64,000 nt of DNA from an uncultured Rhodospirillaceae bacterium (GCA_964012715.1 CAXGUG010000003.1:5163-69162), one strand, 5' to 3'. Shown: positions 5,562 through 43,921, counted from the first letter of the stretch. Notes: generated by a model from the letters alone, not told the origin. Numbers and translations: made by a program.

Positions 5562-5605
5562 GCCCGTTCCGCCCCCCGCAAACACAGGCAAAAAGAAACG
5601 ACGAG

Positions 5606-7763: not shown

Positions 7764-7783
7764 ATGACCGAGGTGGAAGGCGG

Positions 7784-7810
7784 GATGAAGGCTACCCTGC
7801 GGCCTTCATC
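7784..7810. terminator. 9-bp inverted repeat (GATGAAGGC N9 GCCTTCATC) at a convergent gene junction
   Basis: Read directly from the sequence. It lies between the DUF934 stop and the cyclase stop, and the 3' arm is inside the cyclase coding end. There is no T-tract. Confidence 0.25.
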
Positions 7811-9729: not shown

Positions 9730-9891
9730 GGACCTCGCTCCTACCCCATCTGTCGTTTTTCATTTCGCCTGATACGGCAAAATAGTTGATAAAAAAGCAA
9801 TTCTCGACAAACCAATTAACGAGTATGGCACTAGTTACATGCAAATTGTACTCAATATCAGGTTTGAGCCAACCATTTCTCGGATTTTGGT

Positions 9892-9911
9892 CCGTTTATA
9901 AGAATAAACGG
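9892..9911 (+). promoter_or_regulatory. perfect 8-bp inverted repeat CCGTTTAT-AAGA-ATAAACGG immediately upstream of the S8 peptidase RBS
   Basis: Read directly from the sequence. It sits in an AT-rich divergent intergenic region, 2 nt before GGAG (9914-9917) and 13 nt before the ATG at 9925. Confidence 0.4.
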
Positions 9912-9924
9912 ATGGAGCCGCCCA

Positions 9925-11253
9925 ATGGATGTGAAGACCCTTATATTCAGAGCCGCCACAATCGTCACCCTGACCAGTGGTATAGGGAGCGGCGTTTTAG
10001 TATGGGGCGTACCGCAATCCCGGGCGGCTGACGGCCCCGATGTTCTGGGCACGATGAAAGCCTTATGCGCTCTTAAGCCGACGGATACCGATGGGCTGCG
10101 CCAAGCGCTTCCGGATGGCCGGATGCTGGAGGCGCGAATGGATGGTCCCAAGGGAAATCCAATGCGCAGCCTTCATCGTGTCTTGATGCCCAACGACGGC
10201 GAATGGGTGATCAGCCGCATTTTCCCCATGGGTCGCGTGCTCCGATTCAGTCTGGAATGGCACGAGCCTGTGGCGGGGGGCACGGCACGCCCGCAGATTG
10301 CCTTGATCGCCGGAAGGGATTGCGTTCCGACCGAAGGGCGACGCCTGTCCTATGGGGTGGATGGCCGTCCGATCAGGCTGGAGGTTCTGTCCTCCGACTT
10401 GAAATCGGTGGTGATGAGTGAAGTCATCGATCCGCCTGTGCCGGATTTGGCTGTGCCGCCTGCTGACGCGGTCCGGGTCGCCCTGATCGATACGGGCGTC
10501 AATTATACTCTTCCCCTGTATCGGGGGCGATTGGGGGTGTCGAAAGACGGGGCCTTGGCCGGATATGATTTCTGGGACATGGATGCGCGACCGTTCGATA
10601 TCGATACGACGCGCTCGCCCTTTTTCCCGCTTCATCACGGCACGGCGGTCTCGTCGATCATCCTGCGCGAAGCGCCCAAGGCCGTCGTGCTGCCCTATCG
10701 TTATCCCCGCAACGCAATGGCGCGGTTCGCGGACCTTGTCGCCCGCGCTGATGCCGACGGGGCGCTGGTCGTCAACATGGCCATGGGCTCGAACCGGCGC
10801 TCCGACTGGGCGGCGTTCGCGCAGGCGGCCAAGGACCGCCCCCATATGTTGTTCATCGTTTCCGCCGGAAACGACGGCCGCGACCTGGATCAGGTGCCTG
10901 TCTATCCGGCGGCGCTGGACCTGGAGAATATCCTGGTCGTTACGTCGTCCGATGCCGAGGGGCGGCTGGCCCGCGGCTCCAACTGGGGCGCGGTTGTCGT
11001 CGATGTCATGGCGCCAGGGGAACAGGTCGCGGTGATCGATCACCGGGGGGCCGCCGGGAAGGCGTCGGGGTCGAGCTTCGCCGTGCCCCGGGTCGCGGCC
11101 CTGGCGGCGCGGTTGCTGGCCAAGCATCCGGAATGGCGCGGGCCGGAATTGAAAGCGGCGATCGTCAAGCGCGCCCGCAAACCCTTCGGCCGCGACGTCT
11201 TGCCGTTACGCCACGGATGGATTCCCGATCCGACCGACGATTTCGAAGGCTGA
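9925..11253 (+). CDS. secreted S8 (subtilisin-like) serine peptidase with an uncharacterised approximately 170-aa N-terminal region
   Basis: The Asp/His/Ser triad contexts are VALIDTGVN, HHGTAVSSII and GSSFAVPRVAALAARLL. The N-terminus is hydrophobic and signal-like. Confidence 0.85.
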   Translation: MDVKTLIFRAATIVTLTSGIGSGVLVWGVPQSRAADGPDVLGTMKALCALKPTDTDGLRQALPDGRMLEARMDGPKGNPMRSLHRVLMPNDGEWVISRIFPMGRVLRFSLEWHEPVAGGTARPQIALIAGRDCVPTEGRRLSYGVDGRPIRLEVLSSDLKSVVMSEVIDPPVPDLAVPPADAVRVALIDTGVNYTLPLYRGRLGVSKDGALAGYDFWDMDARPFDIDTTRSPFFPLHHGTAVSSIILREAPKAVVLPYRYPRNAMARFADLVARADADGALVVNMAMGSNRRSDWAAFAQAAKDRPHMLFIVSAGNDGRDLDQVPVYPAALDLENILVVTSSDAEGRLARGSNWGAVVVDVMAPGEQVAVIDHRGAAGKASGSSFAVPRVAALAARLLAKHPEWRGPELKAAIVKRARKPFGRDVLPLRHGWIPDPTDDFEG

Positions 11254-11255
11254 GG

Positions 11256-12404
11256 TTACTTCGGCGCGCCGCCGCGACGCGGGGGCGGGGGTTGACGCAT
11301 GAACCGTTCGGCCACGGGCTTCAATTGCGGGTGGTGCTCAAGCAGCAAGGCATAGGCCTTTTGCGCCATCACGTCATTGCCGCTCCACCGACCGGCCTGA
11401 ATGGCGAGGCGCAGCACCTGCGGATCGCTGGGCAGGGCCGCCATCAATTTTTCCAGATGCGGGATTTCGTCTTCGTAACGCTGTGCCACGTGTAGCGTCA
11501 CGGCAAGGGACAGGCGGGTGTTCAGGGCGTTGGGGTCCTGGTCGATGGATCGGTTGAACAAATCCAGGGCGGGTTCCAGGAACTGTTGCCGCCCCAGGAC
11601 CTGTCCCGCGTCGTCGAATAATTGTCGGTTCCCCGTGGCCAAACATTGCTTGTAGAGGAAATCCACGTTCGATGGCGCCATCCTCTGGCTGGTGGCGTGG
11701 GTCGCGTCCAAGGCTTCGGCGCATTTGCGATACGTCAGCCCGATACGCCCGCTTTCCAACGCCTGCTCCGGTCCGGACTGGGTTTTCAGCTTGGCGATCT
11801 CGGACACGGGGATGGCTTCGTTCCGGCCTTCGCCGCCGGACGCGATGATCGCCACCAATTCGCCTGCGCGGTCGAACAGGCCCCCGCCCGAATTTCCGGG
11901 TTGGCTGCGCGCCGAATGATGAACGCGGGCCAGCGGCTTGTCCTCCGGTGGTATGGCCACGACCCGGCCGGGAAGATAGGCGCGGATCGCGCCCCGCCCG
12001 ACGTCGGCGCCAACCGTATAAACCTGTTGATCGACCGCCGCCGTTCCCAGGATCAGTTGGTGGGGCACGACCAAGCCGTCGACCCGAAGCAGGATCAGGT
12101 CGCCCGGGTACGAGGTCGGCACGACCTCGGCGATGCGTTGGCTGCCGTCGTCCATGAACAGTTGGGCGCGGGGGTTGTCGGCGACGACATGTCGGTTCGT
12201 GACCAGCAGGCCCGGTTCGATCAGCACGGCGCTGCCGACAGGGTCGAACGACGAGATGGCGAACACTCGGGCGGAAGATTGGCAAACCGCCGTCGGCGCC
12301 TTGCAGCCGGGCGCGGGGTGTTGCGCCTTGGCCGGTGCGCCAAGTAGTGCCGCCAAAATCAGAAGAATCAGCGGAAGGCGGATCATCTGAAAGCCCTGAA
12401 ACAT
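11256..12404 (-). CDS. secreted trypsin-like (S1/S1C) serine protease fused to TPR-like repeats
   Basis: A signal peptide (LILLILAALLGAPAKAQ) is followed by LVTNRHVV (His), DLILLRV (Asp) and GNSGGGLFD (Ser). The helical C-terminal half is TPR-like. An alternative start lies at 12386. Confidence 0.8.
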   Translation of the reverse strand: MFQGFQMIRLPLILLILAALLGAPAKAQHPAPGCKAPTAVCQSSARVFAISSFDPVGSAVLIEPGLLVTNRHVVADNPRAQLFMDDGSQRIAEVVPTSYPGDLILLRVDGLVVPHQLILGTAAVDQQVYTVGADVGRGAIRAYLPGRVVAIPPEDKPLARVHHSARSQPGNSGGGLFDRAGELVAIIASGGEGRNEAIPVSEIAKLKTQSGPEQALESGRIGLTYRKCAEALDATHATSQRMAPSNVDFLYKQCLATGNRQLFDDAGQVLGRQQFLEPALDLFNRSIDQDPNALNTRLSLAVTLHVAQRYEDEIPHLEKLMAALPSDPQVLRLAIQAGRWSGNDVMAQKAYALLLEHHPQLKPVAERFMRQPPPPRRGGAPK

Positions 12405-12604
12405 GACGATGCGATGCCGGATTCCGCCCGTCCTGTCAATCGTCCGAGGGTCATAGCCTTCAAAACATAATGCGAAATAACAAAAATCGGGACGTAATTT
12501 TCTTAATTAGTGTTGAAATGATGATTTTGTGGCGTATGATCTGCGCCAGCGGCGGTGAAAGCCCGCATTTGGGTTGGATGGCGAATGCCCGAAAGGAATT
12601 TTTG

Positions 12605-13423
12605 ATGTCTGACAACGGCACCGGGAGCGCTTTGGGAAAGGCGTTGGCTGTTCTAGAGGTCCTATTGGATGAGCCGACGGCGTTGTCCCTGGGCGATATC
12701 GCCGCGCGCACCGATCTGCCACGCCAGACCGTCCATCGCATGGTCAAGCAGCTTGAGGAAAATGCCCTGCTGCGCCGCGACCCGGGGGGCGACAGCTATT
12801 CGGTCGGGCCGCGCATGGTCGATTTGGGGATGCAGGCCTTGACCGCCAGCACCCGCGCGGCGCCGGTTCGCCGTGTGCTGCAAAACCTGGTTACCCGCCT
12901 GGGCGAGACCTGTAACCTCGGCGTTCTGGCCCGCGACGAGGTCGTATACATCGAACGCGTCGAATGCGATTGGCCGCTGCGGATTCAATATCGGGTTGGC
13001 TCGCGCGTGCCGCTGCATGCGACCGGCATCGGTAAGCTATTGCTGGCGCATCTACCGGCGCGGGAACGCCGGCGGTTGCTGCGTGTGTTGCCGCTGACGA
13101 AGTTGACCGAGCGGACAATCACCGACCCCGATGGGCTGGAGGACGAGCTGTCCGCCATTCGCAAGCGTGGATATGCCGCCAACGACCAGGAAAACACCCA
13201 GGGCCTGATTGGCCTTGCCGTGCCGATCCGGAATCCGAAAGGACGCGTGATCGCCGGTTTGGCGGTGCATGCCCCGGAGGCTCGGTTCCCGATGACGCGC
13301 GCGTTGTCGCATGTCGCCGATCTGAGCGCCGCGGCGGCGGAGTTGGAAGAATTTTTTGCGGAAGACCTGGAGGGGCTGCAGAGCGCCGCCTCGGAAACAG
13401 CCGGGCTATCCGCGCAGACCTGA
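12605..13423 (+). CDS. IclR family transcriptional regulator
   Basis: LGKALAVLEVLLDEPTALSLGDIAARTDLPRQTVHRMVKQLEE is the wHTH region, and the C-terminal part is an IclR effector domain (ATGIGKLLLA, GLIGLAVPI). The ATG at 12605 is preferred over the longer ORF from 12470. Confidence 0.85.
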   Translation: MSDNGTGSALGKALAVLEVLLDEPTALSLGDIAARTDLPRQTVHRMVKQLEENALLRRDPGGDSYSVGPRMVDLGMQALTASTRAAPVRRVLQNLVTRLGETCNLGVLARDEVVYIERVECDWPLRIQYRVGSRVPLHATGIGKLLLAHLPARERRRLLRVLPLTKLTERTITDPDGLEDELSAIRKRGYAANDQENTQGLIGLAVPIRNPKGRVIAGLAVHAPEARFPMTRALSHVADLSAAAAELEEFFAEDLEGLQSAASETAGLSAQT

Positions 13424-13439
13424 TTGGGAGGAATTGGAA

Positions 13440-14333
13440 ATGACGTCTCTTGATAGCCATGTCGTCGACGGCGGCCCCGCCGGCGGTTTGCGCCTGCGGC
13501 CGGTATCCGCCGCCATCGGCGCGGAGGTGTTGGGTGTCGATCTGTCGCACGTCGATGACGTGTTGTTCGATCAAATTCACGCCGCCTGGATGGACAACTG
13601 CGTGCTGCTGTTCCGCGGCCAGAACAACATGTCGGACGAAGCCCTGGTCAACTTCTCCCGACGCGTCGGTGAATTGGATCAGGCCCCGCCGAACGAAAAC
13701 GGCAAGCGCTTCGTCGAAGGCTTTCCGGAGATCCTGGTGATTTCCAACGTCGTCGAAAACGGTGTCGCCCTGGGCTCTCTGGGGGCTGGCGAGTCCGTTT
13801 GGCATTCGGACATGAATTACATCGACGAGCCGCCGACGGCGAGCATGCTGTGGGGAATGGAAGTGCCCGCCACGGGCGGCAACACGGGCTTTTTGAACAT
13901 GTACAAAGCCCTGGACGACCTGCCCGAAGATTTGCGTGCGCGGATCGAGGGCAAGTTCATCAAACACGACAGTTCCACCAATTCGGCGGGCTATCTGCGC
14001 GAAGGGGCCGAGGAAGTGAGCGACGTCTCGACCTGCCCGGGCGCGGTTCACCCGATTATCCGCACCCATCCGGCGACCGGGCGTAAGGCGCTGTACCTGG
14101 GCCGTCGCCGCAATGCCTATGTGATGGGTCTGCCGGTCGCGGAGTCCGAGGAATTGTTGGACGCCCTTTGGGCCCATACCTCGCAGGAAAAATACTACTG
14201 GCACCATCAGTGGCAGGTCGGCGACGTGTTGATGTGGGACAATCGATGCTGCATGCATCGCCGCGACCCGTTCGACCCCGAATCCCGCCGCGTCATGCAT
14301 CGCACCCAGATCAAAGGCAGCAAGCCCGTTTGA
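13440..14333 (+). CDS. TauD/TfdA family Fe(II)/2-oxoglutarate dioxygenase
   Basis: A GGGAGG RBS precedes the start. WHSDMNYIDEPPTASMLWGMEVPATGGNTGF carries the HxD iron ligands, and a distal His lies in VHPIIRTHP. The C-terminal RVMHRTQIKG also fits the family. Confidence 0.85.
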   Translation: MTSLDSHVVDGGPAGGLRLRPVSAAIGAEVLGVDLSHVDDVLFDQIHAAWMDNCVLLFRGQNNMSDEALVNFSRRVGELDQAPPNENGKRFVEGFPEILVISNVVENGVALGSLGAGESVWHSDMNYIDEPPTASMLWGMEVPATGGNTGFLNMYKALDDLPEDLRARIEGKFIKHDSSTNSAGYLREGAEEVSDVSTCPGAVHPIIRTHPATGRKALYLGRRRNAYVMGLPVAESEELLDALWAHTSQEKYYWHHQWQVGDVLMWDNRCCMHRRDPFDPESRRVMHRTQIKGSKPV

Positions 14334-14378
14334 TCGGCGCACTCATTCAACCCATTCCATCCTTGGGAGTATTACAAC

Positions 14379-15809
14379 ATGTCAATGCCGCAACCGGTGG
14401 CCAACGCCACTGACGCCAAAGAAGTCGTTGCCGGGCTGGTCGAACGCGCCCGCGCCGCGATGGCCGAATTCGCCGAAGCCGATCAGGCGCGCGTCGATGA
14501 AGCCGTGACCGCGCTGGCCTGGTCGATCTACGAGCCCGCCCGGGCCGAGGAGCTGGCCAAGCTTGCCGTGGAAGACACGGGCCTGGGCAATGTGCCGTCG
14601 AAGATCATCAAGAACACGCGCAAGACCTTCGGCTGCCTGCGCGACCTGATGCGGGTCAAAACCGTCGGCGTGATCGAAGAAGACAAGGCCAAGGGCTTGG
14701 TCAAATACGCCAAGCCGGTCGGCGTGGTCGGCGCGGTGAGCCCGTCCACCAACCCGGCGGCGACCCCGGTCAACAAAGCGATGTTCGCGATCAAGGGCCG
14801 CAACGCGGTGATCGTGGCCCCGTCCCCGGCGGGTCAGAAGACGACGGAAAAGACCGTCGACTACATGCGCGCCGAGTTGAAGAAAATCGGCTTGCCCGAA
14901 GATCTGGTGCAGGTTCTGCCCGCCCCGGTGAACAAGGAGCTGACCCAGCGCCTGATGGAAGCGGTCGATCTGGTGATTATCACCGGCTCGCAGAACAACG
15001 TGCGTCGGGGCTATTCCTCGGGCACGCCCTGCATCGGCGTCGGTGCGGGTAACGTGCCGGTCATCATCGACGAGACGGCGGACTTCATGGACGCGGCGGA
15101 GAAAATCCGCATGTCCAAGATTTTCGACAACTCGACCTCGTGCTCGTCGGAAAACTCGGTGACGATCCTGGGCTCGGTCTACGACCAGGCGATGGACGCG
15201 CTGAAGAAAGTCGGCGGCTATCTGTGCACGCCGGAAGAAAAGGAAAAGGTCTTCCAGGCCCTGTGGCAGGACGGCAAGCTGAACCGCCGCCTGATCGCCA
15301 AGGACGCGGCGGTCTTCGCCCGCGAGGTCGGCCTGTCGGATGAAGCGCAAACCGCCGACTTCTTCATGGTCGAAGAGCCGCTGGGCGCGGTCGGCAAAGA
15401 GCATCCGTTCTCGGACGAAAAATTGTCGCTGGTCCTGACCGTCTACAAGGCCCCTGATTTCCAGGCCGCCAAGAAGCAGGTGCACGACATCCTCAGCTTC
15501 GTCGGCATGGGGCATTCGGTCGGCATCCACACCAAGGATCAGGCCCATGCCACGGAATTGGCCGAGGATCTGGACGTCGTGCGCGTGTTGGTCAATCAGG
15601 CCCATACCTTCGGCAACGGCGGCAGCTTCACCAACGGCTTGAACTTCACCCTGTCCATGGGCTGCGGCACCTGGGCCGGGAACTCCATCTCGGAGAACCT
15701 GAACTACAAGCACTTCATCAATATCACCCATCTGGTTCGGGAAATTCCCGAAGACAAGCCGTCGGAAGATGATCTCTTCGGCGCCTACTGGACGAAGTAC
15801 GGCAAATGA
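14379..15809 (+). CDS. CoA-acylating aldehyde dehydrogenase (EutE/SucD/SauS-like)
   Basis: 476 aa. SPSTNPAATPVNKA, ITGSQNNVRRGYSSGTPCIGVGAGNVP and the catalytic-Cys region FDNSTSCSSENS are typical of acylating ALDHs. The stop overlaps the next start (ATGA). Confidence 0.8.
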   Translation: MSMPQPVANATDAKEVVAGLVERARAAMAEFAEADQARVDEAVTALAWSIYEPARAEELAKLAVEDTGLGNVPSKIIKNTRKTFGCLRDLMRVKTVGVIEEDKAKGLVKYAKPVGVVGAVSPSTNPAATPVNKAMFAIKGRNAVIVAPSPAGQKTTEKTVDYMRAELKKIGLPEDLVQVLPAPVNKELTQRLMEAVDLVIITGSQNNVRRGYSSGTPCIGVGAGNVPVIIDETADFMDAAEKIRMSKIFDNSTSCSSENSVTILGSVYDQAMDALKKVGGYLCTPEEKEKVFQALWQDGKLNRRLIAKDAAVFAREVGLSDEAQTADFFMVEEPLGAVGKEHPFSDEKLSLVLTVYKAPDFQAAKKQVHDILSFVGMGHSVGIHTKDQAHATELAEDLDVVRVLVNQAHTFGNGGSFTNGLNFTLSMGCGTWAGNSISENLNYKHFINITHLVREIPEDKPSEDDLFGAYWTKYGK

Positions 15810-16957
15810 ATTTCGAGGAACATGCAGGTAAGCCGCTCCTGAAAGCGGCGGGAATCCCCGTGCCCGAAGGGGCCACGGTCACCACGGCGGACGCAGCAGC
15901 GGACGTCGCCCAAAAGCTGATCGGCGCGCATGGCGGCAAGGTCGTCGTCAAGGCGCAGGTCCCGACGGGCAAGCGCGGCAAGGCGGGCGGCATCAAGCTG
16001 GCCGGCTCCGCCGATGAAGCCAAGGGCGTCGCCGCGGCGATCCTGGGCATGACCATCGGCGAACACACGGTCGAAAAGGTGCTGGTCGAACAGGCCACGC
16101 CGTTCACCCGTGAATTCTATGCCGCCGTGATCAACGACCCGGAAACCAAGGGGCCGAAGATTCTGTTCTCGACCCTAGGCGGCATGGACGTGGAAGAAGC
16201 GGCCGAGCAGGATCCCAACGCCATGCGCGGTCTCGCGGTCGATATCCGCAAAGGCCCCGACGCCGCCGCCGTGCGGGCGATGCTCGACAACGCCGGGCTG
16301 GACGGCCTGGAGGACGCTATCGCCGACGTGCTGATGAAGCTCTACACGGCCTACAGCACCAACGATGCGGAGCTTATGGAAATCAACCCGCTGGCGGTGT
16401 TGGAAGCGGGCGGTATCTGCGCCCTGGACTGCAAGTTCACCATGGATGACAGCGCCGTGCCCCGGCACGAAGAGCTGGCCAAGACCGGCACGCCGGACAA
16501 GCTGACCGGCCTGGAAGCCAAGGGCAAGGAACTGGACCTCAAGTACATCGAGCTTGAAGGCGACGTCGGCGTCCTGGCCAACGGGGCGGGCCTGACCATG
16601 ACGACCATGGACGTGGTTCGTCATCACGGCGGGACCCCGGCAAACTTCCTGGAAATCGGGGGCGAGGCCTATACCAAGGGCACGGACGCCCTGCGCCTGG
16701 TCCTGGACAATCCCAAGGTCAAATCCCTGGTCATCAACTTCTGCGGGGCCTTCGCCCGCACCGACGTCATGACCCAGGGCATCCTCAATGCCTGGGACGA
16801 ACTGAAGCCGACCCTGCCGACGTTTTGGTCCGTGCACGGCACGGGCGACGTCGAAGCCGTGGCCATGTTGAAAGAACGGTTGGGGGTTGATCCCCTGCCG
16901 GATATGAGCGCGGCCTGCAAGGCTGCGGTCGAAGCTGCGAAAGGGGGTGCGAAATGA
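15806..16957 (+). CDS. succinate/malate-CoA ligase beta-subunit-like (ADP-forming, ATP-grasp)
   Basis: MNFEEHAGKPLLKAAGIPVPEG, VVVKAQVPTGKRGKAGGIKL, EINPL and the GNVGVLANGAGLTMTTMD-like block (DVGVLANGAGLTMTTMD) fit the family. Confidence 0.85.
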   Translation: MNFEEHAGKPLLKAAGIPVPEGATVTTADAAADVAQKLIGAHGGKVVVKAQVPTGKRGKAGGIKLAGSADEAKGVAAAILGMTIGEHTVEKVLVEQATPFTREFYAAVINDPETKGPKILFSTLGGMDVEEAAEQDPNAMRGLAVDIRKGPDAAAVRAMLDNAGLDGLEDAIADVLMKLYTAYSTNDAELMEINPLAVLEAGGICALDCKFTMDDSAVPRHEELAKTGTPDKLTGLEAKGKELDLKYIELEGDVGVLANGAGLTMTTMDVVRHHGGTPANFLEIGGEAYTKGTDALRLVLDNPKVKSLVINFCGAFARTDVMTQGILNAWDELKPTLPTFWSVHGTGDVEAVAMLKERLGVDPLPDMSAACKAAVEAAKGGAK

Positions 16958-17829
16958 TCATCCGTGGCAGTCACAAGGTGATCGTTCAGGGCATCACCGG
17001 TAAGCAAGGTACGTTCTGGGCTGAACGGATGATGGAATACGGCACCCAGATCGTCGGTGGCGTGAACCCGAAAAAAGCCGGGACGGAACACATCGGCGTG
17101 CCGGTGTTCGGCTCGGCCGTCGATGCGCAGAAGGGCCTGGAAGACGGCTTCGACGTGTCGATCCTGTTCATCCCGCCGATGGGGGCGAAGGCGGCGGCGT
17201 TGGACGCCATCGAAGCCAACGCCAAGGCCGTCGTGATCCTGACCGAGCACATCCCCGTGCAGGACGTGATGTACATCATGTCCGCCGCCAAGGAACGCGG
17301 CGTCAAGATCATCGGCCCCAACACGGCGGGCGGCGTGACGCCGGGCGAATGTTTCACGGGCTTCATGCCGGCCTTCAACGACAAGATCTTCAAGCCGGGC
17401 AATGTCGGCGTGATCTCGCGGTCCGGCTCGCTCGGCACGCTGATGTGCCTGAACGTGGTGCAGGCCGGGTTCGGTATTTCGGCCTTTGTCGGGATCGGGG
17501 GCGACCCGATCATCGGCACCACCACCCGCGATGCGCTGGAAGCTCTCGACGCGTTCGAGAAAACCGACGCCGTGGTGATGGTCGGTGAAATCGGCGGCGC
17601 GATGGAAGAGCACGCCGCCGAATACGCCGCGACCATGAACAAGCCGATGGCCGCATTCATTGCCGGTGGGGCTGCGCCCGCGGGTAAGAAAATGGGCCAT
17701 GCCGGTGCGATCGTCATGGGTGACAAGGGAACCTACAAGTCCAAGGCCGACGCGTTGTCGGCGGCGGGTGTGGCGATCCTGGACACGCCCATGGACGTCG
17801 GCCCCGTGTTGAAGGAACGGATGGGCTAA
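16954..17829 (+). CDS. succinate/malate-CoA ligase alpha-subunit-like
   Basis: [34 protein letters not shown] and the phosphohistidine loop MGHAGAIV are present. The start has a 4-nt overlap with the beta gene. Confidence 0.85.
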
Positions 17830-17864
17830 GCGCTCCCATTCCTGCATACGATCTCAACCATTGT

Positions 17865-17910
17865 CTCGCCGTCACATGAATCGGATAATCCGGTCAACAG
17901 TGACGGCGAG
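17865..17910 (+). terminator. 11-bp perfect inverted repeat (CTCGCCGTCAC N24 GTGACGGCGAG) after the ligase alpha gene
   Basis: Read directly from the sequence. The loop is large and contains a small inner palindrome, CGGATAATCCG. No T-tract follows. Confidence 0.3.
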
Positions 17911-17969
17911 GCCCGGTTGAACAGGCGGGTGCCTCACGTCCATTTTTGGAACGATTAGAGGAATTTCCC

Positions 17970-18752
17970 ATGACTCCGCCCGATGGCCACGGCCACGACA
18001 ACGACCATTTGACCGATTCCGACACCATCCGCACCCTGCATGGCCGTCGGTCGATTCGCGCCTATTCCGACAAACCGGTGACCGACGAACAAGTCACGGC
18101 GATCGTCGAAGCAGCGCGCCGCGCTCCGACCTCGGCCAACCTGCAGGCCTATTCGGTGGTTGTCGTGCGCGATGCCGAAACCAAGGCCAAGCTGGCCAAG
18201 CTGGCCGGCGGTCAGAAGCACATCATCGATTGCCCGGTCTATCTTGCCTTCGTCGCCGACCTGACGCGGATCGAAGCCGCGTTCCAGCGCAACGGCAACA
18301 ATCTGGACGACAACAACCTGGAAATGGGGTTGATGGCCTCGGTCGATGCCACCCTGGTCGGCATGTCCGCCTACTTGGTTGCGGAAAGCCTGGGCATTCA
18401 AGGCGTGATGATCGGCGCCATGCGCAACGACCCCGAGGCCGTGGCCGAAATTCTGAACCTGCCGTACCGTGCTTACGTGGTGTTTGGCCTGTGCCTGGGC
18501 TATCCGGCGGAAGCGCCGAAGCAAAAGCCGCGCATGCCCGCCGAAGGGATCATCCACTACGAGCGCTACGACGCCGATAAGGCGTTGGGCATCGTCGATA
18601 CCTATAACGACCAGCTCCGCGAACACTACGAATCCATCGGCAAGACCACGGATAAGGAATCCTGGTCCGCCGATGTCGATAAGAAGTACGCCCAGCGTCC
18701 GCGCGATCATCTGCGCGATGCGCTGAAAAAGCGGGGGTTCGACTTCCGCTGA
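17970..18752 (+). CDS. NfsA/FRP-like NADPH-dependent FMN (nitro)reductase
   Basis: RSIRAYSDKPVTDEQVTAIVEAARRAPTSANLQAYSVVVVRD is typical of the nitroreductase superfamily, NfsA group. An ATG follows an AGAGGA RBS. Confidence 0.8.
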   Translation: MTPPDGHGHDNDHLTDSDTIRTLHGRRSIRAYSDKPVTDEQVTAIVEAARRAPTSANLQAYSVVVVRDAETKAKLAKLAGGQKHIIDCPVYLAFVADLTRIEAAFQRNGNNLDDNNLEMGLMASVDATLVGMSAYLVAESLGIQGVMIGAMRNDPEAVAEILNLPYRAYVVFGLCLGYPAEAPKQKPRMPAEGIIHYERYDADKALGIVDTYNDQLREHYESIGKTTDKESWSADVDKKYAQRPRDHLRDALKKRGFDFR

Positions 18753-21574: not shown

Positions 21575-22903
21575 TTACAGGCCTTTGATCAGGACCCAGG
21601 CGACCGCCGCCGGGGCGACGAACCGGCAGATGAACACCCAGACCCGGACCAGGGGAAACGGGTGCGTGCCGTCGGATTGGGCTTCTTCAATGGCGCGGGC
21701 AGTGATCGACCAGCCGACGAACAAGGCGATCAATACCCCGCCCAGCGGCAGCATGATGTTCGAGGCCAGATAATCCATGGCATCCAGGAACCCCTTGCCC
21801 CCGACCTTGAGGTCGGACCATGGACCCAGTGACAGGGCAGACGGAATGCCGAGCGCCCAAATGACGGCCCCCGCGATAACGACGCCCCAGCGCCGCGAGA
21901 TGCCGCGTTCGTCGATCAGATAGGCGACGACAGGCTCCAGGATCGACACGGCGGAGGTCAGGGCGGCGATCGCCAACAATGCAAAGAACATAAAGGCGAA
22001 GGCCTGACCCAGGGGCATCTGCGCGAACACGGCGGGCAGGGTGATGAAGGTCAGTCCGGGCCCGGACGCCGGGTCGAAGCCGAATGCGAAGACAGCAGGC
22101 AGGATCATGAACCCGGCGATCACGGCGAACGCCGTATCCAAAAAGGTCACTTGTGCCGCGGTGCGCGGCAGGTTGACCTGTTTGTCCAGGTAGCTGGCGT
22201 AGGTCAGCATCGCGCCCATGCCCAGGGACAGGGAAAAGAAAGCCTGCCCCAGGGCGGCGTTGACCGTGTCCCAGGTGACCTTGGAAAAGTCGGGGGTCAG
22301 GAAAAAGGCGATCCCTTTCTCTGCGCCGTCCAAGGTGACCGCGCGCACTGCCAGAACAACAACGAGAACCGCCAGAATGGGCATAAGGATGCGCGACGCC
22401 CGCTCGATCCCGCCGCGCACGCCGCCGGCGATGACGCCAGCGGTCAGCACCATGAACAGAGTGTGGAAACCGATCACGCCCCAGGGCTCGGAAATGAACC
22501 CGCCGAACGTTGCGCCCAGGGCTTTCGGATCGCTATGCGCCAACGCGCCGGTCGCGGCCTTGACCGCATAGGCGATGGTCCAGCCGCCGACCACGGAATA
22601 AAAGGACAGGATCACGAAACCGGCCAGAACGCCCAGGCCCCCGGCGGCGGCCCAGGGCCCGCCCTTCAGGGCGCGGAACGAGCCGACGGGGTTGCGTTGC
22701 CCGGCGCGGCCGATGGCGAACTCGGCCAGCATCACCGAAAAGCCGATGGAAAAGACGAAGGCCAGGTAAATCAGCAGGAACGCCCCGCCGCCGCTTTGCC
22801 CGGTCATGTAGGGAAATTTCCAGATGTTGCCCAGCCCCACGGCGGAGCCGGCGGCAGCCAGAACGAAGCCCAACCGGGTGGCGAAATGGTCGCGAGACTG
22901 CAT
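21575..22903 (-). CDS. sodium-dependent transporter, SNF (neurotransmitter:sodium symporter) family
   Basis: RLGFVLAAAGSAVGLGNIWKFPYMTGQSGGGAFLLIYL is the NSS signature. The protein has about 11-12 hydrophobic segments. Confidence 0.85.
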   Translation of the reverse strand: MQSRDHFATRLGFVLAAAGSAVGLGNIWKFPYMTGQSGGGAFLLIYLAFVFSIGFSVMLAEFAIGRAGQRNPVGSFRALKGGPWAAAGGLGVLAGFVILSFYSVVGGWTIAYAVKAATGALAHSDPKALGATFGGFISEPWGVIGFHTLFMVLTAGVIAGGVRGGIERASRILMPILAVLVVVLAVRAVTLDGAEKGIAFFLTPDFSKVTWDTVNAALGQAFFSLSLGMGAMLTYASYLDKQVNLPRTAAQVTFLDTAFAVIAGFMILPAVFAFGFDPASGPGLTFITLPAVFAQMPLGQAFAFMFFALLAIAALTSAVSILEPVVAYLIDERGISRRWGVVIAGAVIWALGIPSALSLGPWSDLKVGGKGFLDAMDYLASNIMLPLGGVLIALFVGWSITARAIEEAQSDGTHPFPLVRVWVFICRFVAPAAVAWVLIKGL

Positions 22904-26324: not shown

Positions 26325-26432
26325 GGTGGCGCTCGCTTTTTTCTACCTGTTCAGGGCGCGGTTCCGACGCCGACGGTTTTGCGCCGCCGGGTCCAAAACT
26401 TCCACCAAAATCGAAAAGGCGAAGGCGAACGA

Positions 26433-27209
26433 TCAGGTCAGGGCGCGTCTGATCAGATTGAGTCCGACCAGAAACAACAATACCAGCATCGCCTTGCGAA
26501 AGGCTTCTTCATTGATCCATTTGCGGATCTGTTCACCGACCAGGATACCGATCATCCCGGGCAGGCAGGCCGCCGCCGACAGCCAGACGTTGGATGGATT
26601 GAGCACGCCGTTCGACCAGTAGAACATGGTCAGGGGAATGGCCCCGGCGGTCCAGATCAAGGCGACGGTGCGGACCCATTCGTCCTTGGGCAGTTTCAAC
26701 AGCACCAGATAGATCATCAAGGGCGGGCCCCAGATGGTGGTCAGGCCGCCCAATAGGCCGCCCATGGTGCCGGCGACCGGCCCGGCCCAACGTTCGGTTC
26801 CTGGCTTCAACGGTTCGGGCCGGGGCTTCCACAGGCTGGTTCCGGCGAAGATCGCGACGCAGGTGCCCAGGACGATGAACAGAACCTTGGTGTCGAAGGC
26901 CGCCAGCATCAGCGACCCCAGCCAAAGGAACAACAGGAACGGGATCAGTAGGGGGGCGTGGCGCTTAATAGGGGCGAACAAGCTGCCTGCACGGGAGACT
27001 TGCCACAAGTTGGTGATCAGGATGGGGACGACCAACAGGGCGATGGCTTCGCGTGGTTCCAGCAGGTTGGCGGTAACGACGATCGAGACGGTGACGATCG
27101 GCAGGCCGACGCCCGAAATACCCTTGGTCATGCCACCGCCGAATACGGCCAAGGCGATCAGCGCGAGCAATTCAGGCGGGTGGCCCAGCAGATCGGTCAG
27201 AAAGGCCAT
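26433..27209 (-). CDS. TauE/SafE family sulfite/anion exporter
   Basis: 258 aa with 7-8 TM segments. GGGMTKGISGVGLPIV and the second-half repeat GGLLGGLTTIWGPPLMIYL are characteristic. The start is 4 nt after the upstream enolase-superfamily gene stop. Confidence 0.75.
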   Translation of the reverse strand: MAFLTDLLGHPPELLALIALAVFGGGMTKGISGVGLPIVTVSIVVTANLLEPREAIALLVVPILITNLWQVSRAGSLFAPIKRHAPLLIPFLLFLWLGSLMLAAFDTKVLFIVLGTCVAIFAGTSLWKPRPEPLKPGTERWAGPVAGTMGGLLGGLTTIWGPPLMIYLVLLKLPKDEWVRTVALIWTAGAIPLTMFYWSNGVLNPSNVWLSAAACLPGMIGILVGEQIRKWINEEAFRKAMLVLLFLVGLNLIRRALT

Positions 27210-27213
27210 GGGT

Positions 27214-33309: not shown

Positions 33310-33332
33310 GACATCCACCGAACGGAACGAAT

Positions 33333-34052: not shown

Positions 34053-34054
34053 TC

Positions 34055-34405: not shown

Positions 34406-34409
34406 GATC

Positions 34410-34748: not shown

Positions 34749-34772
34749 GACACGTTTGAGGGAGAAGAAACG

Positions 34773-35648: not shown

Positions 35649-35665
35649 GGAAGGGAGCGAAGACC

Positions 35666-40136: not shown

Positions 40137-41069
40137 CTAGGCGTCGGGTTCCGACGCCTTGATCGCGGCGATCGCCGTGGCGGCGAAGCGGGCTTCGGGC
40201 GGATCGGCGCGCGAGGTCAGGACGATCGGGACCTTGGCGCCCAGGACGATGCCTGCCGCCAGGCCGCTGTTGAAATAGACCAGCATTTTGAACAGGCCGT
40301 TGCCCATTTCGATATTGGGCACGACCAGAATGTCGGCATGTCCAGCGACGGGGCTGTCGATGCCTTTCAGTTCGGCGGCGGCCGGGGAAATGGCATTGTC
40401 GAAGGCGAACGGACCGTCGACAATTGCCCCGGTGATTTCTCCGGCGCGGGCGCGGTCGACGATGGCTTTGGCCTGAATGCTCGACGGCATCGCCGGGATC
40501 GGGCTTTCCGTGCCGGAGAGCATGGCGACCTTGGGTTCCGGATTGCCCAACGCATGGGCCAGGTCGACCGCGTTGCGGACAATGTCCATCAGGGTGTTTT
40601 CATTGGGGTGTACGTTGACCGCGCCGTCGGTGATCATCAGCACCCGGTCGCTGCCCGGCACGGTCATATGAAAGACGTGGGACAGGCGACGGCCGACACG
40701 CAGGCCGCCGTCACGGGCGACCACTGCGGCCATCAAGGCGTCGGTATGGATATGCCCCTTCATCAGGGCCCGGACCTCGCCGTCGCGGGCCAGGGCCACG
40801 GCGGCGCGGGCGGCGGCGCCCTCGTCCTCTTCCGTCACGTTGACGACGCGGTAATCCGAAATGTCCCAACCCATGGTCTGGGCCAGGCTTTCGATCTCGT
40901 CCTGATCGCCGACCAGAACCGGATCGATCAAGCCCGCCTCGGTCGCCTGACGGGCGCTTTCCATGACCACCATGTTATCGGCCCCGGCCACGGCCATGGG
41001 CACGCGGTCCCGGCCTTTGGCCAGATCGAGAAGATATTGGGGGACTTCGAAGGGGACGGTGCTGAGCAT
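40137..41069 (-). CDS. pta: phosphate acetyltransferase (short Pta/Ptb-type)
   Basis: 310 aa of the phosphate acetyl/butyryl transferase family (MAVAGADNMVVMESARQA, PVAGHADILVVPNIEMGN, TSRADP). It lies near xsc, as in known sulfoacetaldehyde clusters. Confidence 0.8.
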   Translation of the reverse strand: MLSTVPFEVPQYLLDLAKGRDRVPMAVAGADNMVVMESARQATEAGLIDPVLVGDQDEIESLAQTMGWDISDYRVVNVTEEDEGAAARAAVALARDGEVRALMKGHIHTDALMAAVVARDGGLRVGRRLSHVFHMTVPGSDRVLMITDGAVNVHPNENTLMDIVRNAVDLAHALGNPEPKVAMLSGTESPIPAMPSSIQAKAIVDRARAGEITGAIVDGPFAFDNAISPAAAELKGIDSPVAGHADILVVPNIEMGNGLFKMLVYFNSGLAAGIVLGAKVPIVLTSRADPPEARFAATAIAAIKASEPDA

Positions 41070-41888: not shown

Positions 41889-43673
41889 TTAGACGGCACC
41901 CTTCTGCGGGCGCATGTCGGCGGCGCTGATGCCGGCGACTTCGACCGGGGCCTTCATGGCGTCGCGGCGGAACGGCTCGCCCAGTTCCTGGTTCAGGATC
42001 ACTTCGATGAAGGTCGTGACCTTGTTTTCCATCTGATCCTTCACGGCCGCGTCCAGGGCTTCGGTCAGTTCCTGCATGGTCGTGACCTGCACGCCCTTGA
42101 GGCCACAGGCTTCGGCGATCTTGGCGTACTGAACGTCGAGGTCCAGTTCGGTGCCGACGAAGTTGTCCTGGTACCACAGGGTCGTGTTGCGCTTTTCAGC
42201 ACCCCACTGGTAGTTGCGGAAGATGATCATCGTGATCGCCGGCCATTCGTCACGGCCGCAGGCGGTCATTTCGTTCATCGAGATGCCGAAGGCGCCGTCA
42301 CCGGCAAAGCCCACGACCGGGGTGTCCGGATTGGCGATCTTGGCGCCCGTGATCGACGGGAAGCCGTAACCGCAGGGGCCGAACAGGCCCGGGGCCAGAT
42401 ACTTGCGGCCCTGCTCAAAGGTCGGATAGGCGTTGCCGATGGCGCAGTTGTTGCCGATGTCCGACGAGATGATGGCTTCGCGCGGCAGGGCGGCCTGAAT
42501 GGCGCGCCAGGCTTTGCGGGGCGACATCCGCTCCGGGTGCTTGTTGCGCGCACGCTCGTTCCAGGTGGTGCCCGGATCGTCGTCTTCGTGGTCCATGGAG
42601 GTCAGTTCCTGGGCCCAGCGCGATTTGGTGGTCGAGATCAGGTCTTCGCGTTCCTTGCGGCCCGCGTTGCCCGCTTCGGCGGACAGGCTGGCCAGGATCT
42701 GTTCGGCGACCTGCTTGGCATCGCCCTGGATGGCGACGTCGACCTTTTTGGTCAGGCCGATACGGCTGGCGTTGATGTCGACCTGGATGATCTTGGCGTT
42801 CTTCGGCCAGTAATCGATGCCGTAGCCCGGCAGGGTCGAGAACGGGTTGAGGCGCGTGCCCAGGGCCAGAACGACGTCGGCCTTGGCGATCAGTTCCATG
42901 CCCGCCTTGGAGCCGTTGTAGCCCAGCGGACCGGCGAACAGCGGGTGCGAGCCCGGGAAGGCGTCGTTGTGCTGATAGCCGCAGCAGACCGGAGCGGACA
43001 GACGCTCGGCAAGGGCCTTGGAGGCGTCGATGCCGCCCGCCAGAACCACGCCGGCGCCGTTCAGGATGACCGGGAACTTGGCCGAGGACAGCAGCTTGGC
43101 GGCGTCGGCGATGGCGCTCTTGCCGCCCGAGGGGCGTTCGATTTCGATGACCTGCGGCAGTTCGATGTCGACGATCTGGGTCCAGAAATCACGCGGCACG
43201 TTGATCTGCGCCGGGGCGGAACCACGCCAAGCTTCGGTGATCACGCGGTTCAGAACCTCGGCGATGCGGGTCGGGTCGCGGACTTCTTCCTGATAGCAGA
43301 CCATGTCTTCGAACAACTTCATCTGCGGGATTTCCTGGAAGCCGCCCTGACCGATGGTCTTGTTGGCGGCCTGCGGGGTGACCAGCAGCATCGGGGTGTG
43401 GTTCCAATAGGCGGTCTTGACCGGGGTCACGAAGTTGGTGATGCCGGGGCCGTTCTGGGCGACGCACATCGCCATCTTGCCCGACGAACGGGTGAAGCCG
43501 TCGGCCATCATCCCGGCGTTGCATTCATGGGCGCAGTCCCAGAAGGTGATGCCCGCCTTGGGGAACAGGTCCGAGATCGGCATCATGGCCGACCCGATGA
43601 TGCCGAAGGCATGCTCGATGCCGTGCATCTGAAGAACCTTAACGAAGGCCTCTTCGGTGTTCATTTTCGTCAT
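41889..43673 (-). CDS. xsc: sulfoacetaldehyde acetyltransferase (ThDP-dependent)
   Basis: MTKMNTEEAFVKVLQMHGIEHAFGIIGSAMMPISDLFPKAGITFWDCAHECNAGMMADG...TPQAANKTIGQGGFQE closely matches remembered Xsc N-termini. A GGGAGG RBS precedes this start, and the longer ORF to 43901 is rejected. Confidence 0.9.
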   Translation of the reverse strand: MTKMNTEEAFVKVLQMHGIEHAFGIIGSAMMPISDLFPKAGITFWDCAHECNAGMMADGFTRSSGKMAMCVAQNGPGITNFVTPVKTAYWNHTPMLLVTPQAANKTIGQGGFQEIPQMKLFEDMVCYQEEVRDPTRIAEVLNRVITEAWRGSAPAQINVPRDFWTQIVDIELPQVIEIERPSGGKSAIADAAKLLSSAKFPVILNGAGVVLAGGIDASKALAERLSAPVCCGYQHNDAFPGSHPLFAGPLGYNGSKAGMELIAKADVVLALGTRLNPFSTLPGYGIDYWPKNAKIIQVDINASRIGLTKKVDVAIQGDAKQVAEQILASLSAEAGNAGRKEREDLISTTKSRWAQELTSMDHEDDDPGTTWNERARNKHPERMSPRKAWRAIQAALPREAIISSDIGNNCAIGNAYPTFEQGRKYLAPGLFGPCGYGFPSITGAKIANPDTPVVGFAGDGAFGISMNEMTACGRDEWPAITMIIFRNYQWGAEKRNTTLWYQDNFVGTELDLDVQYAKIAEACGLKGVQVTTMQELTEALDAAVKDQMENKVTTFIEVILNQELGEPFRRDAMKAPVEVAGISAADMRPQKGAV

Positions 43674-43848
43674 TGCTTGGGATCCTCCCGTAAGCGTTTC
43701 GCCGGGCACGGCATTCGCCGCAGTGCGCCCGGCATTGGTTGTTGTTGCCAGAGTTATAGCATTCATCGCGCTGGCTTGCCCCGGTCGCGTAACGTCTCGA
43801 AACGTAAAGACGCGCAGGGCCCGGGAGCCTGCAATCCATAGGTCTTTG

Positions 43849-43879
43849 GTAGGGCCTGATGGGACTATGCAGTAGGGCC
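43849..43879. promoter_or_regulatory. direct repeat GTAGGGCC x2 (23-bp spacing) in the tauR-xsc intergenic region
   Basis: Read directly from the sequence: copies at 43849-43856 and 43872-43879, about 180-200 bp upstream of the xsc start. Confidence 0.3.
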
Positions 43880-43921
43880 AGTTTCGGGCAATTCGACGCA
43901 CCAGAACGCGGTAATGAGCTT

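What the first reader, a model, noticed from the sequence alone, without database searches (positions are those of the whole stretch)
12605..18752. IclR / TauD-like dioxygenase / CoA-acylating ALDH / SCS-like CoA ligase / NfsA-like reductase cluster: a possible sulfoacetate-type (Sau-like) route using an ADP-forming ligase
The pairing of an acid-CoA ligase with a CoA-acylating aldehyde dehydrogenase gives acid to acyl-CoA to aldehyde. This is the logic established for sulfoacetate degradation in Cupriavidus necator (SauT ligase plus SauS sulfoacetaldehyde dehydrogenase, controlled by SauR). There the ligase is AMP-forming. Here the ligase is a two-subunit succinyl-/malyl-CoA-synthetase homolog, with an intact phosphohistidine loop MGHAGA and translational coupling to the ALDH through ATGA overlaps. 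Succinyl-CoA synthetases are known to accept sulfur analogues of succinate (3-sulfinopropionate in Advenella). The cluster also carries a TauD/TfdA dioxygenase, which in many members is a sulfonate-cleaving enzyme, and the window separately encodes Xsc/Pta, which would consume sulfoacetaldehyde. A non-orthologous, ADP-forming variant of the Sau pathway, or a route for another sulfonated or dicarboxylic acid, is therefore plausible but unproven.
Basis: inference. Interest (0 to 1): 0.6.

Follow-up and report, generated by a model that had tools for sequence, protein, structure and literature searches.

The report
Sulfoacetate operon with orphan dioxygenase
This marine Rhodospirillales bacterium carries a further copy of an already described gene set that turns the sulfonate sulfoacetate into sulfoacetaldehyde using an ADP-forming CoA ligase; the only unexplained part is an iron dioxygenase of unknown substrate inserted in front of it.

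Summary
Six co-directional genes lie at 12605-18752, with ATGA overlaps between sauS/sauC and sauC/sauD and an MGHAGA phosphohistidine loop.

The aldehyde dehydrogenase passes NCBI's equivalog model for acylating sulfoacetaldehyde dehydrogenase SauS (795 bits, cut-off 600). The ligase is a paralog: a canonical sucCD lies elsewhere in the genome. Its beta subunit has CGAFAR in place of the succinate loop FGGI.

The sauS-sauC-sauD trio recurs in 70 of 80 related loci across Proteobacteria. Some of these also hold a TTT importer and xsc. Xsc, Pta, a Tpa-like aminotransferase and TauE lie in this window.

SauCD/SauS was characterised in Bilophila wadsworthia in 2023, sauSCD clusters were noted in marine MAGs in 2025, and this scan met the module repeatedly on other DNA.

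The TauD-like gene is a genus-specific insertion. It is catalytically intact but is not a taurine dioxygenase, and its substrate is unknown. The NfsA-like gene is probably a separately transcribed neighbour. No importer is adjacent. In some relatives a glutamate-mutase-like B12 trio sits beside the sau genes; this genome lacks it.

The parts
12513..12540 (+). sigma-70-type promoter-like site (TTGAAA, 16 nt spacer, TATGAT) upstream of iclR
   Evidence: scores it 10 of 12. Both hexamers are invariant in six genomes of the genus (alignment A3).
12605..13423 (+). IclR-family regulator, SauR-like by position
   Evidence: Pfam IclR_C and HTH_IclR. Homologs of 45-93% identity sit next to sauS in 22 of 80 related loci. 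No equivalog model is passed.
13440..14333 (+). Fe(II)/2-oxoglutarate dioxygenase of the TauD/TfdA family; substrate unknown; genus-specific insertion between iclR and sauS
   Evidence: Pfam TauD 223 bits, but the TauD equivalog is failed at 159 bits against a 313 cut-off. Fe triad H122/D124/H273, 2-OG contacts T149/R284 and anion Arg R288 are conserved. The taurine contacts are replaced: H70 to A82, Y73 to N85, N95 to E118, S158 to N181 (A1). Nearest solved relatives are the RdpA/AAD-1 type.
14379..15809 (+). sauS, CoA-acylating sulfoacetaldehyde dehydrogenase
   Evidence: NCBIfam NF047625 equivalog, 795.1 bits against a cut-off of 600. It is the only such gene in the genome. Catalytic block FDNSTSCSSENS.
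15806..16957 (+). sauC-like beta (ATP-grasp) subunit of an ADP-forming acid-CoA ligase
   Evidence: It scores 340.9 bits on the SucC equivalog, below the 370 cut-off. The canonical sucC on contig C52 scores 595 bits. VINFCGAFARTD replaces the NIFGGI succinate loop. ATGA overlap with sauS.
16954..17829 (+). sauD-like alpha subunit (CoA-binding, phosphohistidine loop MGHAGA)
   Evidence: It scores 322.8 bits on the SucD equivalog, below the 336 cut-off. The motif is read. ATGA overlap with sauC.
17865..17941 (+). Perfect 11-nt inverted repeat (17865-17875 and 17900-17910), then a weak terminator-like hairpin with a T-run (17927-17941); probable end of the sau transcript
17970..18752 (+). NfsA/Frp-like NADPH-flavin nitroreductase; neighbour, probably its own transcription unit
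   Evidence: 204 bits on the NfsA equivalog, below the 223 cut-off. A promoter-like site lies at 17861-17889. In relatives L043, L044 and L046 an opposite-strand MscS gene separates it from sauD. It is found next to sauD only within the genus.
41889..43901 (-). xsc, sulfoacetaldehyde acetyltransferase; consumer of the SauS product
   Evidence: NF005713 1037 bits and TIGR03457 928 bits, both above cut-off. The HMM covers residues 76-665 of the listed ORF, so the true start is probably later. It is the only copy in the genome.
40137..41069 (-). pta, phosphate acyltransferase
   Evidence: It scores 356 bits on NF006045, above that model's 282 cut-off, and 336 bits on the phosphate acetyltransferase model NF008852, below its 413 cut-off.
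26433..27209 (-). TauE/SafE-type sulfite/sulfonate exporter
   Evidence: Pfam PF01925, 102 bits.

Best explanation
An IclR-type regulator controls an operon iclR-(tauD-like)-sauS-sauC-sauD. SauCD is a two-subunit, ADP-forming paralog of succinyl-CoA synthetase. It activates sulfoacetate to sulfoacetyl-CoA through a phosphohistidine intermediate. SauS reduces the thioester to sulfoacetaldehyde with NAD(P)H. Xsc, 24 kb downstream in the same window, cleaves sulfoacetaldehyde to acetyl phosphate and sulfite. Pta then makes acetyl-CoA, and TauE or assimilatory sulfite reductase disposes of the sulfite. What is shown here is the gene identities, the paralogy, the synteny and the presence of the downstream enzymes. 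What is inferred is the substrate, the direction and the regulation. The TauD-like dioxygenase is a later, genus-specific passenger or accessory with unknown substrate. The NfsA-like gene is an unrelated neighbour.
For: The ALDH passes the SauS equivalog at 795 bits against a cut-off of 600, and it is the only such gene in the genome.

The ligase subunits fall below the SucC and SucD equivalog cut-offs. A canonical sucCD scoring 595 bits lies on contig C52.

The beta subunit belongs to a set of representatives sharing N(F/L)CGAFAR in place of NIFGGI. These group together in a tree with support 0.89.

sauS-sauC-sauD adjacency is found in all 29 relatives' loci examined. sauS is immediately upstream of sauC in 70 of 80 species-level loci across Alpha-, Beta- and Gammaproteobacteria. 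Every neighbouring ALDH that was tested passes the SauS cut-off at 747-779 bits.

Locus L183 reads TTT importer, sauS, sauCD, xsc. Its Xsc scores 953 bits, and its TTT is 72-73% identical to the TTT beside a sauS plus AMP-forming ligase pair in L058.

The biochemical precedent is Bilophila wadsworthia SauCD (ADP-forming, KM 1.07 mM for sulfoacetate) and SauS (PMC10413351).

SauR of Cupriavidus necator responds to sulfoacetate (PMC7057948). Xsc, Pta, a Tpa-like aminotransferase and TauE are all present in this window.
Against: No sulfoacetate importer is adjacent. The genome has no close homolog of the sau-linked TTT system; the best match is 34-39% identical.

I could not compare the ligase directly with the Bilophila SauC/SauD sequences, because no reference to them was reachable with the tools.

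There are no expression or enzyme data.

An uncharacterised dioxygenase inside the operon shows that the local pathway is not fully understood.

Bilophila SauCD also accepts 3-sulfopropanoate (20%) and malonate (7%), so specificity cannot be read from family membership alone.
Confidence: 0.75

Rival explanations
1. The same two enzymes run in the oxidative direction, as SqwD/SqwKL do in the sulfo-TK variant. Sulfoacetaldehyde from taurine transamination would be oxidised to sulfoacetyl-CoA and then to sulfoacetate with ATP gain, and the sulfoacetate would be excreted, for example when taurine serves as a nitrogen source.
For: The reactions are reversible, and the oxidative use is documented for homologous pairs: SqwD/SqwKL and HpfX/HpfYZ (PMC12890257; PMC10413351 section 4). 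A Tpa-like aminotransferase, a MocR-type regulator and TauE/SafE-type and AEC exporters are in the window. No importer is adjacent.
Against: Xsc and Pta in the same genome already dispose of sulfoacetaldehyde with energy conservation. In other genomes the trio sits behind a TTT importer and in front of xsc (L183), which is a catabolic arrangement. The operon has its own IclR regulator, as does the sulfoacetate-induced C. necator system.
Confidence: 0.1
2. The pair acts on a different acid: 3-sulfopropanoate (HpfX/HpfYZ-like), malonate/malonate semialdehyde, or another dicarboxylate.
For: Bilophila SauCD has side activity on 3-sulfopropanoate and malonate. [quoted passage not shown] An earlier scan note reads the SDH-like cluster at 32542-38010 of this window as a 3-sulfopropanoate module (I did not test this).
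Against: The ALDH scores far above the cut-off of the SauS equivalog model, and it scores like the SauS that sits beside a TTT importer and an AMP-forming ligase in L058, the arrangement reported for sauST clusters in marine MAGs (PMC12625764). There is direct operon linkage to xsc, a C2-specific enzyme, in L183 and proximity in L146.
Confidence: 0.07
3. The TauD-like dioxygenase is a functional first or parallel step of the local pathway. One possibility is that it makes a Sau-pathway substrate from an imported precursor such as an N-substituted taurine or another zwitterionic sulfonate. The other is that it desulfonates sulfoacetate directly to glyoxylate and sulfite.
For: It lies 16 bp after iclR and 45 bp before sauS, behind a promoter conserved across the genus. 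It is present at this position in 14 of 16 genus genomes; the two that lack it carry a B12 mutase trio beside iclR, and one has both. The Fe/2-OG site and the anion-binding Arg are intact, with a conserved Glu at the position of TauD's amine-contacting Asn95. In G247 a 54%-identical homolog follows a gene 58% identical to this window's Tpa-like aminotransferase in the same operon.
Against: No TauD-like gene lies beside sauS in any locus outside the genus; the only two further copies among the 80 sauC loci lie 4-6 kb upstream. None of the 20 homologs found in 300 other Alphaproteobacteria is next to sauS, and their neighbours vary; the most frequent is an amidase, in 5 of 17 loci. A conserved acidic residue in the pocket argues against the dianion sulfoacetate as substrate. 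The genus counts are not phylogenetically independent.
Confidence: 0.2

Closest known systems
Bilophila wadsworthia SauS-SauCD(-SauXYZ) sulfoacetate module (Liu et al. 2023, J Biol Chem, PMC10413351)
   Same: It pairs an acylating sulfoacetaldehyde dehydrogenase with a two-subunit SCS-type ADP-forming sulfoacetate-CoA ligase. The gene order is ALDH then ligase subunits, and the logic is sulfoacetate to sulfoacetyl-CoA to sulfoacetaldehyde.
   Different: Here the host is a proteobacterium with Xsc/Pta, so C-S cleavage should be by Xsc rather than through isethionate and the glycyl-radical enzyme IseG. No TTT or SauI importer is adjacent. An IclR regulator and a TauD-family gene are present. Direct sequence comparison with E5Y8P8/E5Y8P7 was not possible.
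Cupriavidus necator H16 sauRSTU (Weinitschke et al. 2010; SauR validated in PMC7057948)
   Same: It has a dedicated regulator, a SauS family enzyme and Xsc/Pta as downstream enzymes, and it is an aerobic carbon-source pathway.
   Different: SauT is a single-chain AMP-forming ligase. This genome has no ortholog (best match 30% identity). No SauU-type MFS importer is next to the genes.
sauSCD clusters in marine sponge-symbiont and seawater MAGs (PMC12625764, 2025)
   Same: They carry the same trio in marine Proteobacteria and were read as sulfoacetate dissimilation feeding the taurine/Xsc route.
   Different: Those clusters carry a TTT transporter. This one carries a TauD-like gene instead and no transporter.
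SqwD/SqwKL (sulfo-TK variant) and HpfX/HpfYZ (Enterococcus gilvus) (PMC12890257, PMC11489063)
   Same: Each pairs an acylating aldehyde dehydrogenase with an ADP-forming SCS-type ligase acting on a sulfonated acid.
   Different: Those run oxidatively in fermenting anaerobes for ATP gain, and HpfXYZ acts on the C3 compound.
TauD (E. coli), AtsK, and RdpA/AAD-1 aryloxyalkanoate dioxygenases
   Same: The window's dioxygenase shares the fold family, the 2-His-1-Asp iron site, the 2-OG arginine and the substrate-anion arginine.
   Different: It is 31% identical to TauD, with all four taurine-contact side chains replaced. It falls below every equivalog cut-off. It belongs to a large uncharacterised subfamily.

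Membership tests
SauS (acylating sulfoacetaldehyde dehydrogenase, NCBIfam NF047625) | Full-length score above the curated equivalog cut-off | tested here: met
   795.1 bits against 600, covering profile positions 1-464.
SauS (acylating sulfoacetaldehyde dehydrogenase, NCBIfam NF047625) | Catalytic cysteine block of CoA-acylating ALDHs | tested here: met
   FDNSTSCSSENS is read in the translation.
SauS (acylating sulfoacetaldehyde dehydrogenase, NCBIfam NF047625) | NADP(H)-dependent reduction of sulfoacetyl-CoA | not testable with these tools
   This needs an enzyme assay.
SauCD (ADP-forming sulfoacetate-CoA ligase) | Two-subunit SCS architecture with ATP-grasp beta, CoA-binding alpha and a phosphohistidine loop | tested here: met
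   Pfam ATP-grasp_2 and Ligase_CoA on the beta subunit; CoA_binding and Ligase_CoA on the alpha subunit. MGHAGA is present.
SauCD (ADP-forming sulfoacetate-CoA ligase) | Distinct from the housekeeping succinyl-CoA synthetase of the same genome | tested here: met
   A canonical sucC scoring 595 bits lies on C52, with sucD next to it. They are only 35% and 43% identical to the window's subunits.
SauCD (ADP-forming sulfoacetate-CoA ligase) | Genomic coupling to sauS | tested here: met
   ATGA overlap here. sauS is upstream in 70 of 80 loci of the clade.
SauCD (ADP-forming sulfoacetate-CoA ligase) | Orthology to the characterised B. wadsworthia proteins E5Y8P8/E5Y8P7 | not testable with these tools
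   No reference to those sequences could be obtained. The 80 loci returned were all Proteobacteria at 57% identity or more, and the cluster look-up gave no organism names.
SauCD (ADP-forming sulfoacetate-CoA ligase) | Sulfoacetate-dependent ADP and phosphate formation | not testable with these tools
   This needs an enzyme assay.
C. necator-type Sau pathway (sauRSTU) | AMP-forming ligase SauT | tested here: not met
   The best genome match to a sauS-linked AMP-forming ligase is 30% identical and lies elsewhere.
C. necator-type Sau pathway (sauRSTU) | Xsc and Pta downstream | tested here: met
Taurine dioxygenase TauD (NF007104) | Score above the equivalog cut-off and conserved taurine-binding residues | tested here: not met
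   159 bits against 313. H70, Y73, N95 and S158 are all replaced.
Fe(II)/2-oxoglutarate dioxygenase, TauD/TfdA superfamily (PF02668) | HxD...H iron triad and 2-OG-binding Arg/Thr | tested here: met
   H122, D124, H273, T149 and R284 are invariant in alignment A1. Pfam 223 bits.
NfsA (oxygen-insensitive NADPH nitroreductase, NF008033) | Score above the equivalog cut-off | tested here: not met
   204 bits against 223. It is a family-level member only.

The most novel reading that the evidence does not exclude
In this Rhodospirillales genus the sauSCD operon has no importer. Instead it always carries one of two accessory modules next to iclR: the TauD-like Fe/2-OG dioxygenase (13 genomes), a glutamate-mutase-like B12 enzyme (2 genomes), or both (1 genome). 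The most novel reading not excluded is that these are alternative, oxygen-dependent versus B12-dependent, feeder enzymes. Each would convert an as yet undescribed sulfonated, probably zwitterionic, metabolite into a substrate of the Sau/Xsc route. The dioxygenase would then be a new sulfonate-processing enzyme rather than a passenger.
Probability: 0.15. Interest if true: 0.6.

Novelty: new member of a known kind. Interest (0 to 1): 0.3.

Why it matters
[quoted passage not shown] This case shows that the SauS/SauCD module, first characterised in a gut anaerobe, is widespread in marine and soil Proteobacteria, where xsc lies beside it in a few genomes and elsewhere in the genome in this one. Databases still call the ligase "succinate--CoA ligase" or "acetate--CoA ligase family protein", so such genomes are mis-annotated. 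That helps in reading marine sulfonate budgets but does not change the pathway picture. The open questions are the orphan dioxygenase and, in sister genomes, the B12 mutase attached to the module.

Tried and rejected
I tried to bring in the Bilophila SauC/SauD sequences for a direct comparison, without success. The best 120 homologs and the 150 cluster representatives carry no Bilophila label. The single genome-contig scan returned only Proteobacteria at 57% identity or more. The paper has no supplementary text held.

The ESM Atlas look-up gave only "TauD/TfdA family". Literature searches found no described sulfoacetate dioxygenase or N-methyltaurine dioxygenase matching this subfamily.

I rejected the following readings:
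- The ligase is the housekeeping SCS. Rejected by the canonical sucC elsewhere in the genome.
- The dioxygenase is TauD. Rejected by the equivalog score and the replaced taurine contacts.
- NfsA belongs to the operon. Rejected by the terminator-like and promoter-like signals, and by the MscS gene inserted between sauD and nfsA in relatives.
- The cluster is a glutamate/methylaspartate route. Rejected because the mutase is absent from this genome.

I did not predict a structure for the dioxygenase, because sequence matches to solved relatives already fix the fold and the tools return no pocket geometry.

Full report
**What is there.** The ORF lists, codon-position GC and family scans confirm six co-directional genes.
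- An IclR-type regulator lies at 12605-13423.
- A TauD/TfdA-family dioxygenase most likely lies at 13440-14333. Its ATG sits behind GGGAGG, 16 bp after the iclR stop.
- A CoA-acylating aldehyde dehydrogenase lies at 14379-15809.
- The beta (15806-16957) and alpha (16954-17829) subunits of a succinyl-CoA-synthetase-type ligase follow.
- An NfsA-like nitroreductase lies at 17970-18752.

A promoter-like TTGAAA-16-TATGAT at 12513-12540 has both hexamers invariant in six genomes of the genus.

Between sauD and the nitroreductase gene lie a perfect 11-nt inverted repeat, a weak terminator-like hairpin with a T-run, and a second promoter-like site. In three congeners an opposite-strand MscS gene sits in this gap. 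I therefore treat the nitroreductase as a neighbour, not an operon member.

**What the core genes are.** The aldehyde dehydrogenase passes NCBI's equivalog model for acylating sulfoacetaldehyde dehydrogenase SauS, with 795 bits against a cut-off of 600 over the whole profile. It is the only such gene in the genome.

The ligase subunits fall just below the SucC and SucD equivalog cut-offs, at 341 against 370 and 323 against 336. The genome has a canonical sucCD elsewhere, with 595 bits for sucC on contig C52 and only 35% and 43% identity to the window's subunits.

In the beta subunit the succinate-binding loop NIFGGI(T/V)R of solved SCS structures reads NFCGAFAR. Among 123 full-length representatives from a search of 1.8 billion proteins, the eleven nearest share C-G-A/T-F/A-A/G-R. 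They group together in a tree with support 0.89, along with two odd sequences. Beyond about 42% identity the loop reverts to FGGI.

**Comparative evidence.** The organism is a marine Rhodospirillales MAG, according to the source names. SauS equivalogs occur in 36 of 61 related genomes. In all 29 relatives' loci that I examined, sauC and sauD (where the stretch reached it) follow sauS.

A scan of species-representative genomes with an alignment of the clade found 513 loci. I examined the best 80, which come from Alpha-, Beta- and Gammaproteobacteria.
- 70 have sauS immediately upstream of sauC.
- 74 have sauD downstream.
- 22 have an IclR homolog.
- About 20 have a TTT transporter upstream.
- 13 have a glutamate-mutase-like trio.
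- A close xsc homolog (81-83% identical) lies in two of them, L146 and L183, and a pta homolog in five.

All seven neighbouring ALDHs that I scanned pass the SauS cut-off at 747-779 bits, and so does one that sits beside an AMP-forming ligase, at 726 bits.

The most telling locus is L183, a Rhodomicrobiaceae MAG. It reads TTT importer, sauS, sauC, sauD, xsc, with Xsc at 953 bits. Its TTT is 72-73% identical to the TTT beside the sauS plus AMP-forming ligase pair of L058. The SCS-type and AMP-type ligases thus occupy the same slot in otherwise equivalent sulfoacetate operons.

This window also supplies the downstream enzymes:
- Xsc at 1037 bits and Pta.
- A MocR-type regulator and a class-III aminotransferase that is probably the taurine:pyruvate aminotransferase Tpa.
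- A TauE exporter.
- Assimilatory sulfite reductase with CysG.

**Mechanism.** The best-supported reading has four steps.
1. SauCD phosphorylates its active-site histidine from ATP, forms sulfoacetyl phosphate and then sulfoacetyl-CoA, and releases ADP and phosphate.
2. SauS reduces the thioester to sulfoacetaldehyde.
3. Xsc converts sulfoacetaldehyde to acetyl phosphate and sulfite.
4. Pta yields acetyl-CoA.

The gene identities and linkages are shown here. The substrate, the direction and the regulation are inferred from families, from context and from the published biochemistry.

**Comparison with what is known.** The ADP-forming solution is not new. Liu et al. (2023, PMC10413351) purified SauCD and SauS of Bilophila wadsworthia. 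They showed sulfoacetate-, CoA- and ATP-dependent phosphate release, sulfoacetyl-CoA by LC-MS, and 20% and 7% side activity with 3-sulfopropanoate and malonate.

Homologous pairs run oxidatively in the sulfo-TK variant (SqwD/SqwKL) and on the C3 compound in Enterococcus gilvus (HpfX/HpfYZ). A 2025 study described sauSCD clusters with TTT transporters in a sponge-symbiont MAG and in seawater bins (PMC12625764).

This scan has also met the module several times on other DNA, including the same four-gene tauD-like/sauSCD arrangement. Those notes agree with what I found independently.

What differs from Bilophila is the host type and the C-S cleavage step, which here is Xsc rather than isethionate plus IseG. 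What differs from Cupriavidus is the ligase class. No SauT ortholog is present; the best match is 30% identical.

**The dioxygenase.** It has the H122/D124/H273 iron triad, the 2-oxoglutarate contacts T149 and R284, and the arginine (R288) that in E. coli TauD binds the sulfonate. The side chains that contact taurine are all replaced: H70 to Ala, Y73 to Asn, N95 to Glu, S158 to Asn (the TauD residue roles come from established structural work, and I checked the numbering against the K-12 sequence fetched).

It fails the TauD equivalog at 159 bits against 313. Its nearest solved relatives are RdpA/AAD-1-type aryloxyalkanoate dioxygenases (E = 2e-43), ahead of TauD and AtsK. It belongs to a large, unnamed subfamily.

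In a sample of 300 other Alphaproteobacteria, 20 carry a homolog of 50-61% identity, and none of these is next to sauS. Their neighbourhoods vary. The most frequent neighbour is an amidase (5 of 17 loci). One locus has a gene 58% identical to this window's Tpa-like aminotransferase directly upstream, and one has the B12 mutase trio.

Within the genus the gene sits between iclR and sauS in 14 of 16 genomes. The other two have the mutase trio beside iclR, and one genome has both. This genome has no mutase.

The pattern is suggestive, but the genomes are close kin. Across the 80 wider loci most sauSCD operons have neither module. I therefore rate the dioxygenase as an accessory of unknown substrate. 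A zwitterionic sulfonate is a reasonable guess, and sulfoacetate itself a less likely one because of the conserved Glu118.

**Gaps.**
- No importer is adjacent, and none of the genome's TTT systems is close to the sau-linked type.
- Direct comparison with the Bilophila sequences was not possible.

**Verdict.** This is a new member of a known kind, of modest interest. An orphan dioxygenase, and in sister genomes a B12 mutase, is the only part that could lead somewhere new.

Noticed in passing
L043:2766-6164, L045, L046, L051:4635-7949, L053; 13 of the 80 loci: A glutamate-mutase-like trio (B12-binding MutS, MutL, MutE; Pfam 456-547 bits for MutE and MutL) is packed on the same strand directly beside iclR/sauS-sauCD in relatives. 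Its gap to sauS can be as small as about 10 bp. It is absent from this genome. No methylaspartase was seen beside it. Its role in a sulfoacetate operon is unexplained.
   Followed up: partly
L183 (Rhodomicrobiaceae MAG JBHJOB010000009.1) 5209-14005: A complete co-directional operon reads TTT importer, sauS, sauC, sauD, xsc. This is the clearest genomic statement of the ADP-forming sulfoacetate route feeding Xsc.
   Followed up: yes
window 41120-41749 (-): A SAM-dependent methyltransferase gene (Methyltransf_25, 71 bits) lies between pta and xsc. An earlier scan note describes a methyltransferase beside a sauS-sauT pair in another genome.
   Followed up: no
window 25395-28299 (-): An enolase-superfamily (MR/MLE) gene, a TauE/SafE exporter and an AEC-family transporter lie in a row. 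TauE is confirmed by Pfam (102 bits).
   Followed up: partly
window 21575-22903 (-): A sodium:neurotransmitter-symporter (SNF) family transporter lies near the sau locus. Homologs of 59-80% identity also lie within a few kb of sauSCD in G009 and G026. It may import an amine sulfonate such as taurine.
   Followed up: no
L098:3000-8413 (G247): A gene 58% identical to this window's Tpa-like aminotransferase is followed after about 15 bp by a TauD-like homolog of 54% identity, with an amidase next door. This may be a clue that the subfamily handles taurine-related compounds.
   Followed up: partly
L163 (record titled Leptospira interrogans LS0056, JBNOAI010000012.1): A locus with IclR, sauS, sauCD and an xsc-like gene that resembles alphaproteobacterial loci (61-64% identity) sits in a record labelled Leptospira interrogans. 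This may be contamination or mislabelling of the assembly.
   Followed up: no
genome contigs C49, C110, C9, C108: The genome holds five further TauD-family paralogs, 33-38% identical to the window's copy.
   Followed up: no
window 32542-38010: A GntR-controlled SDH/FRD-like complex has a split fumarase-like hydro-lyase inside it. An earlier follow-up in this scan reads it as a 3-sulfopropanoate module. Together with xsc, tpa, tauE and sauSCD, it makes this window a sulfonate island.
   Followed up: no
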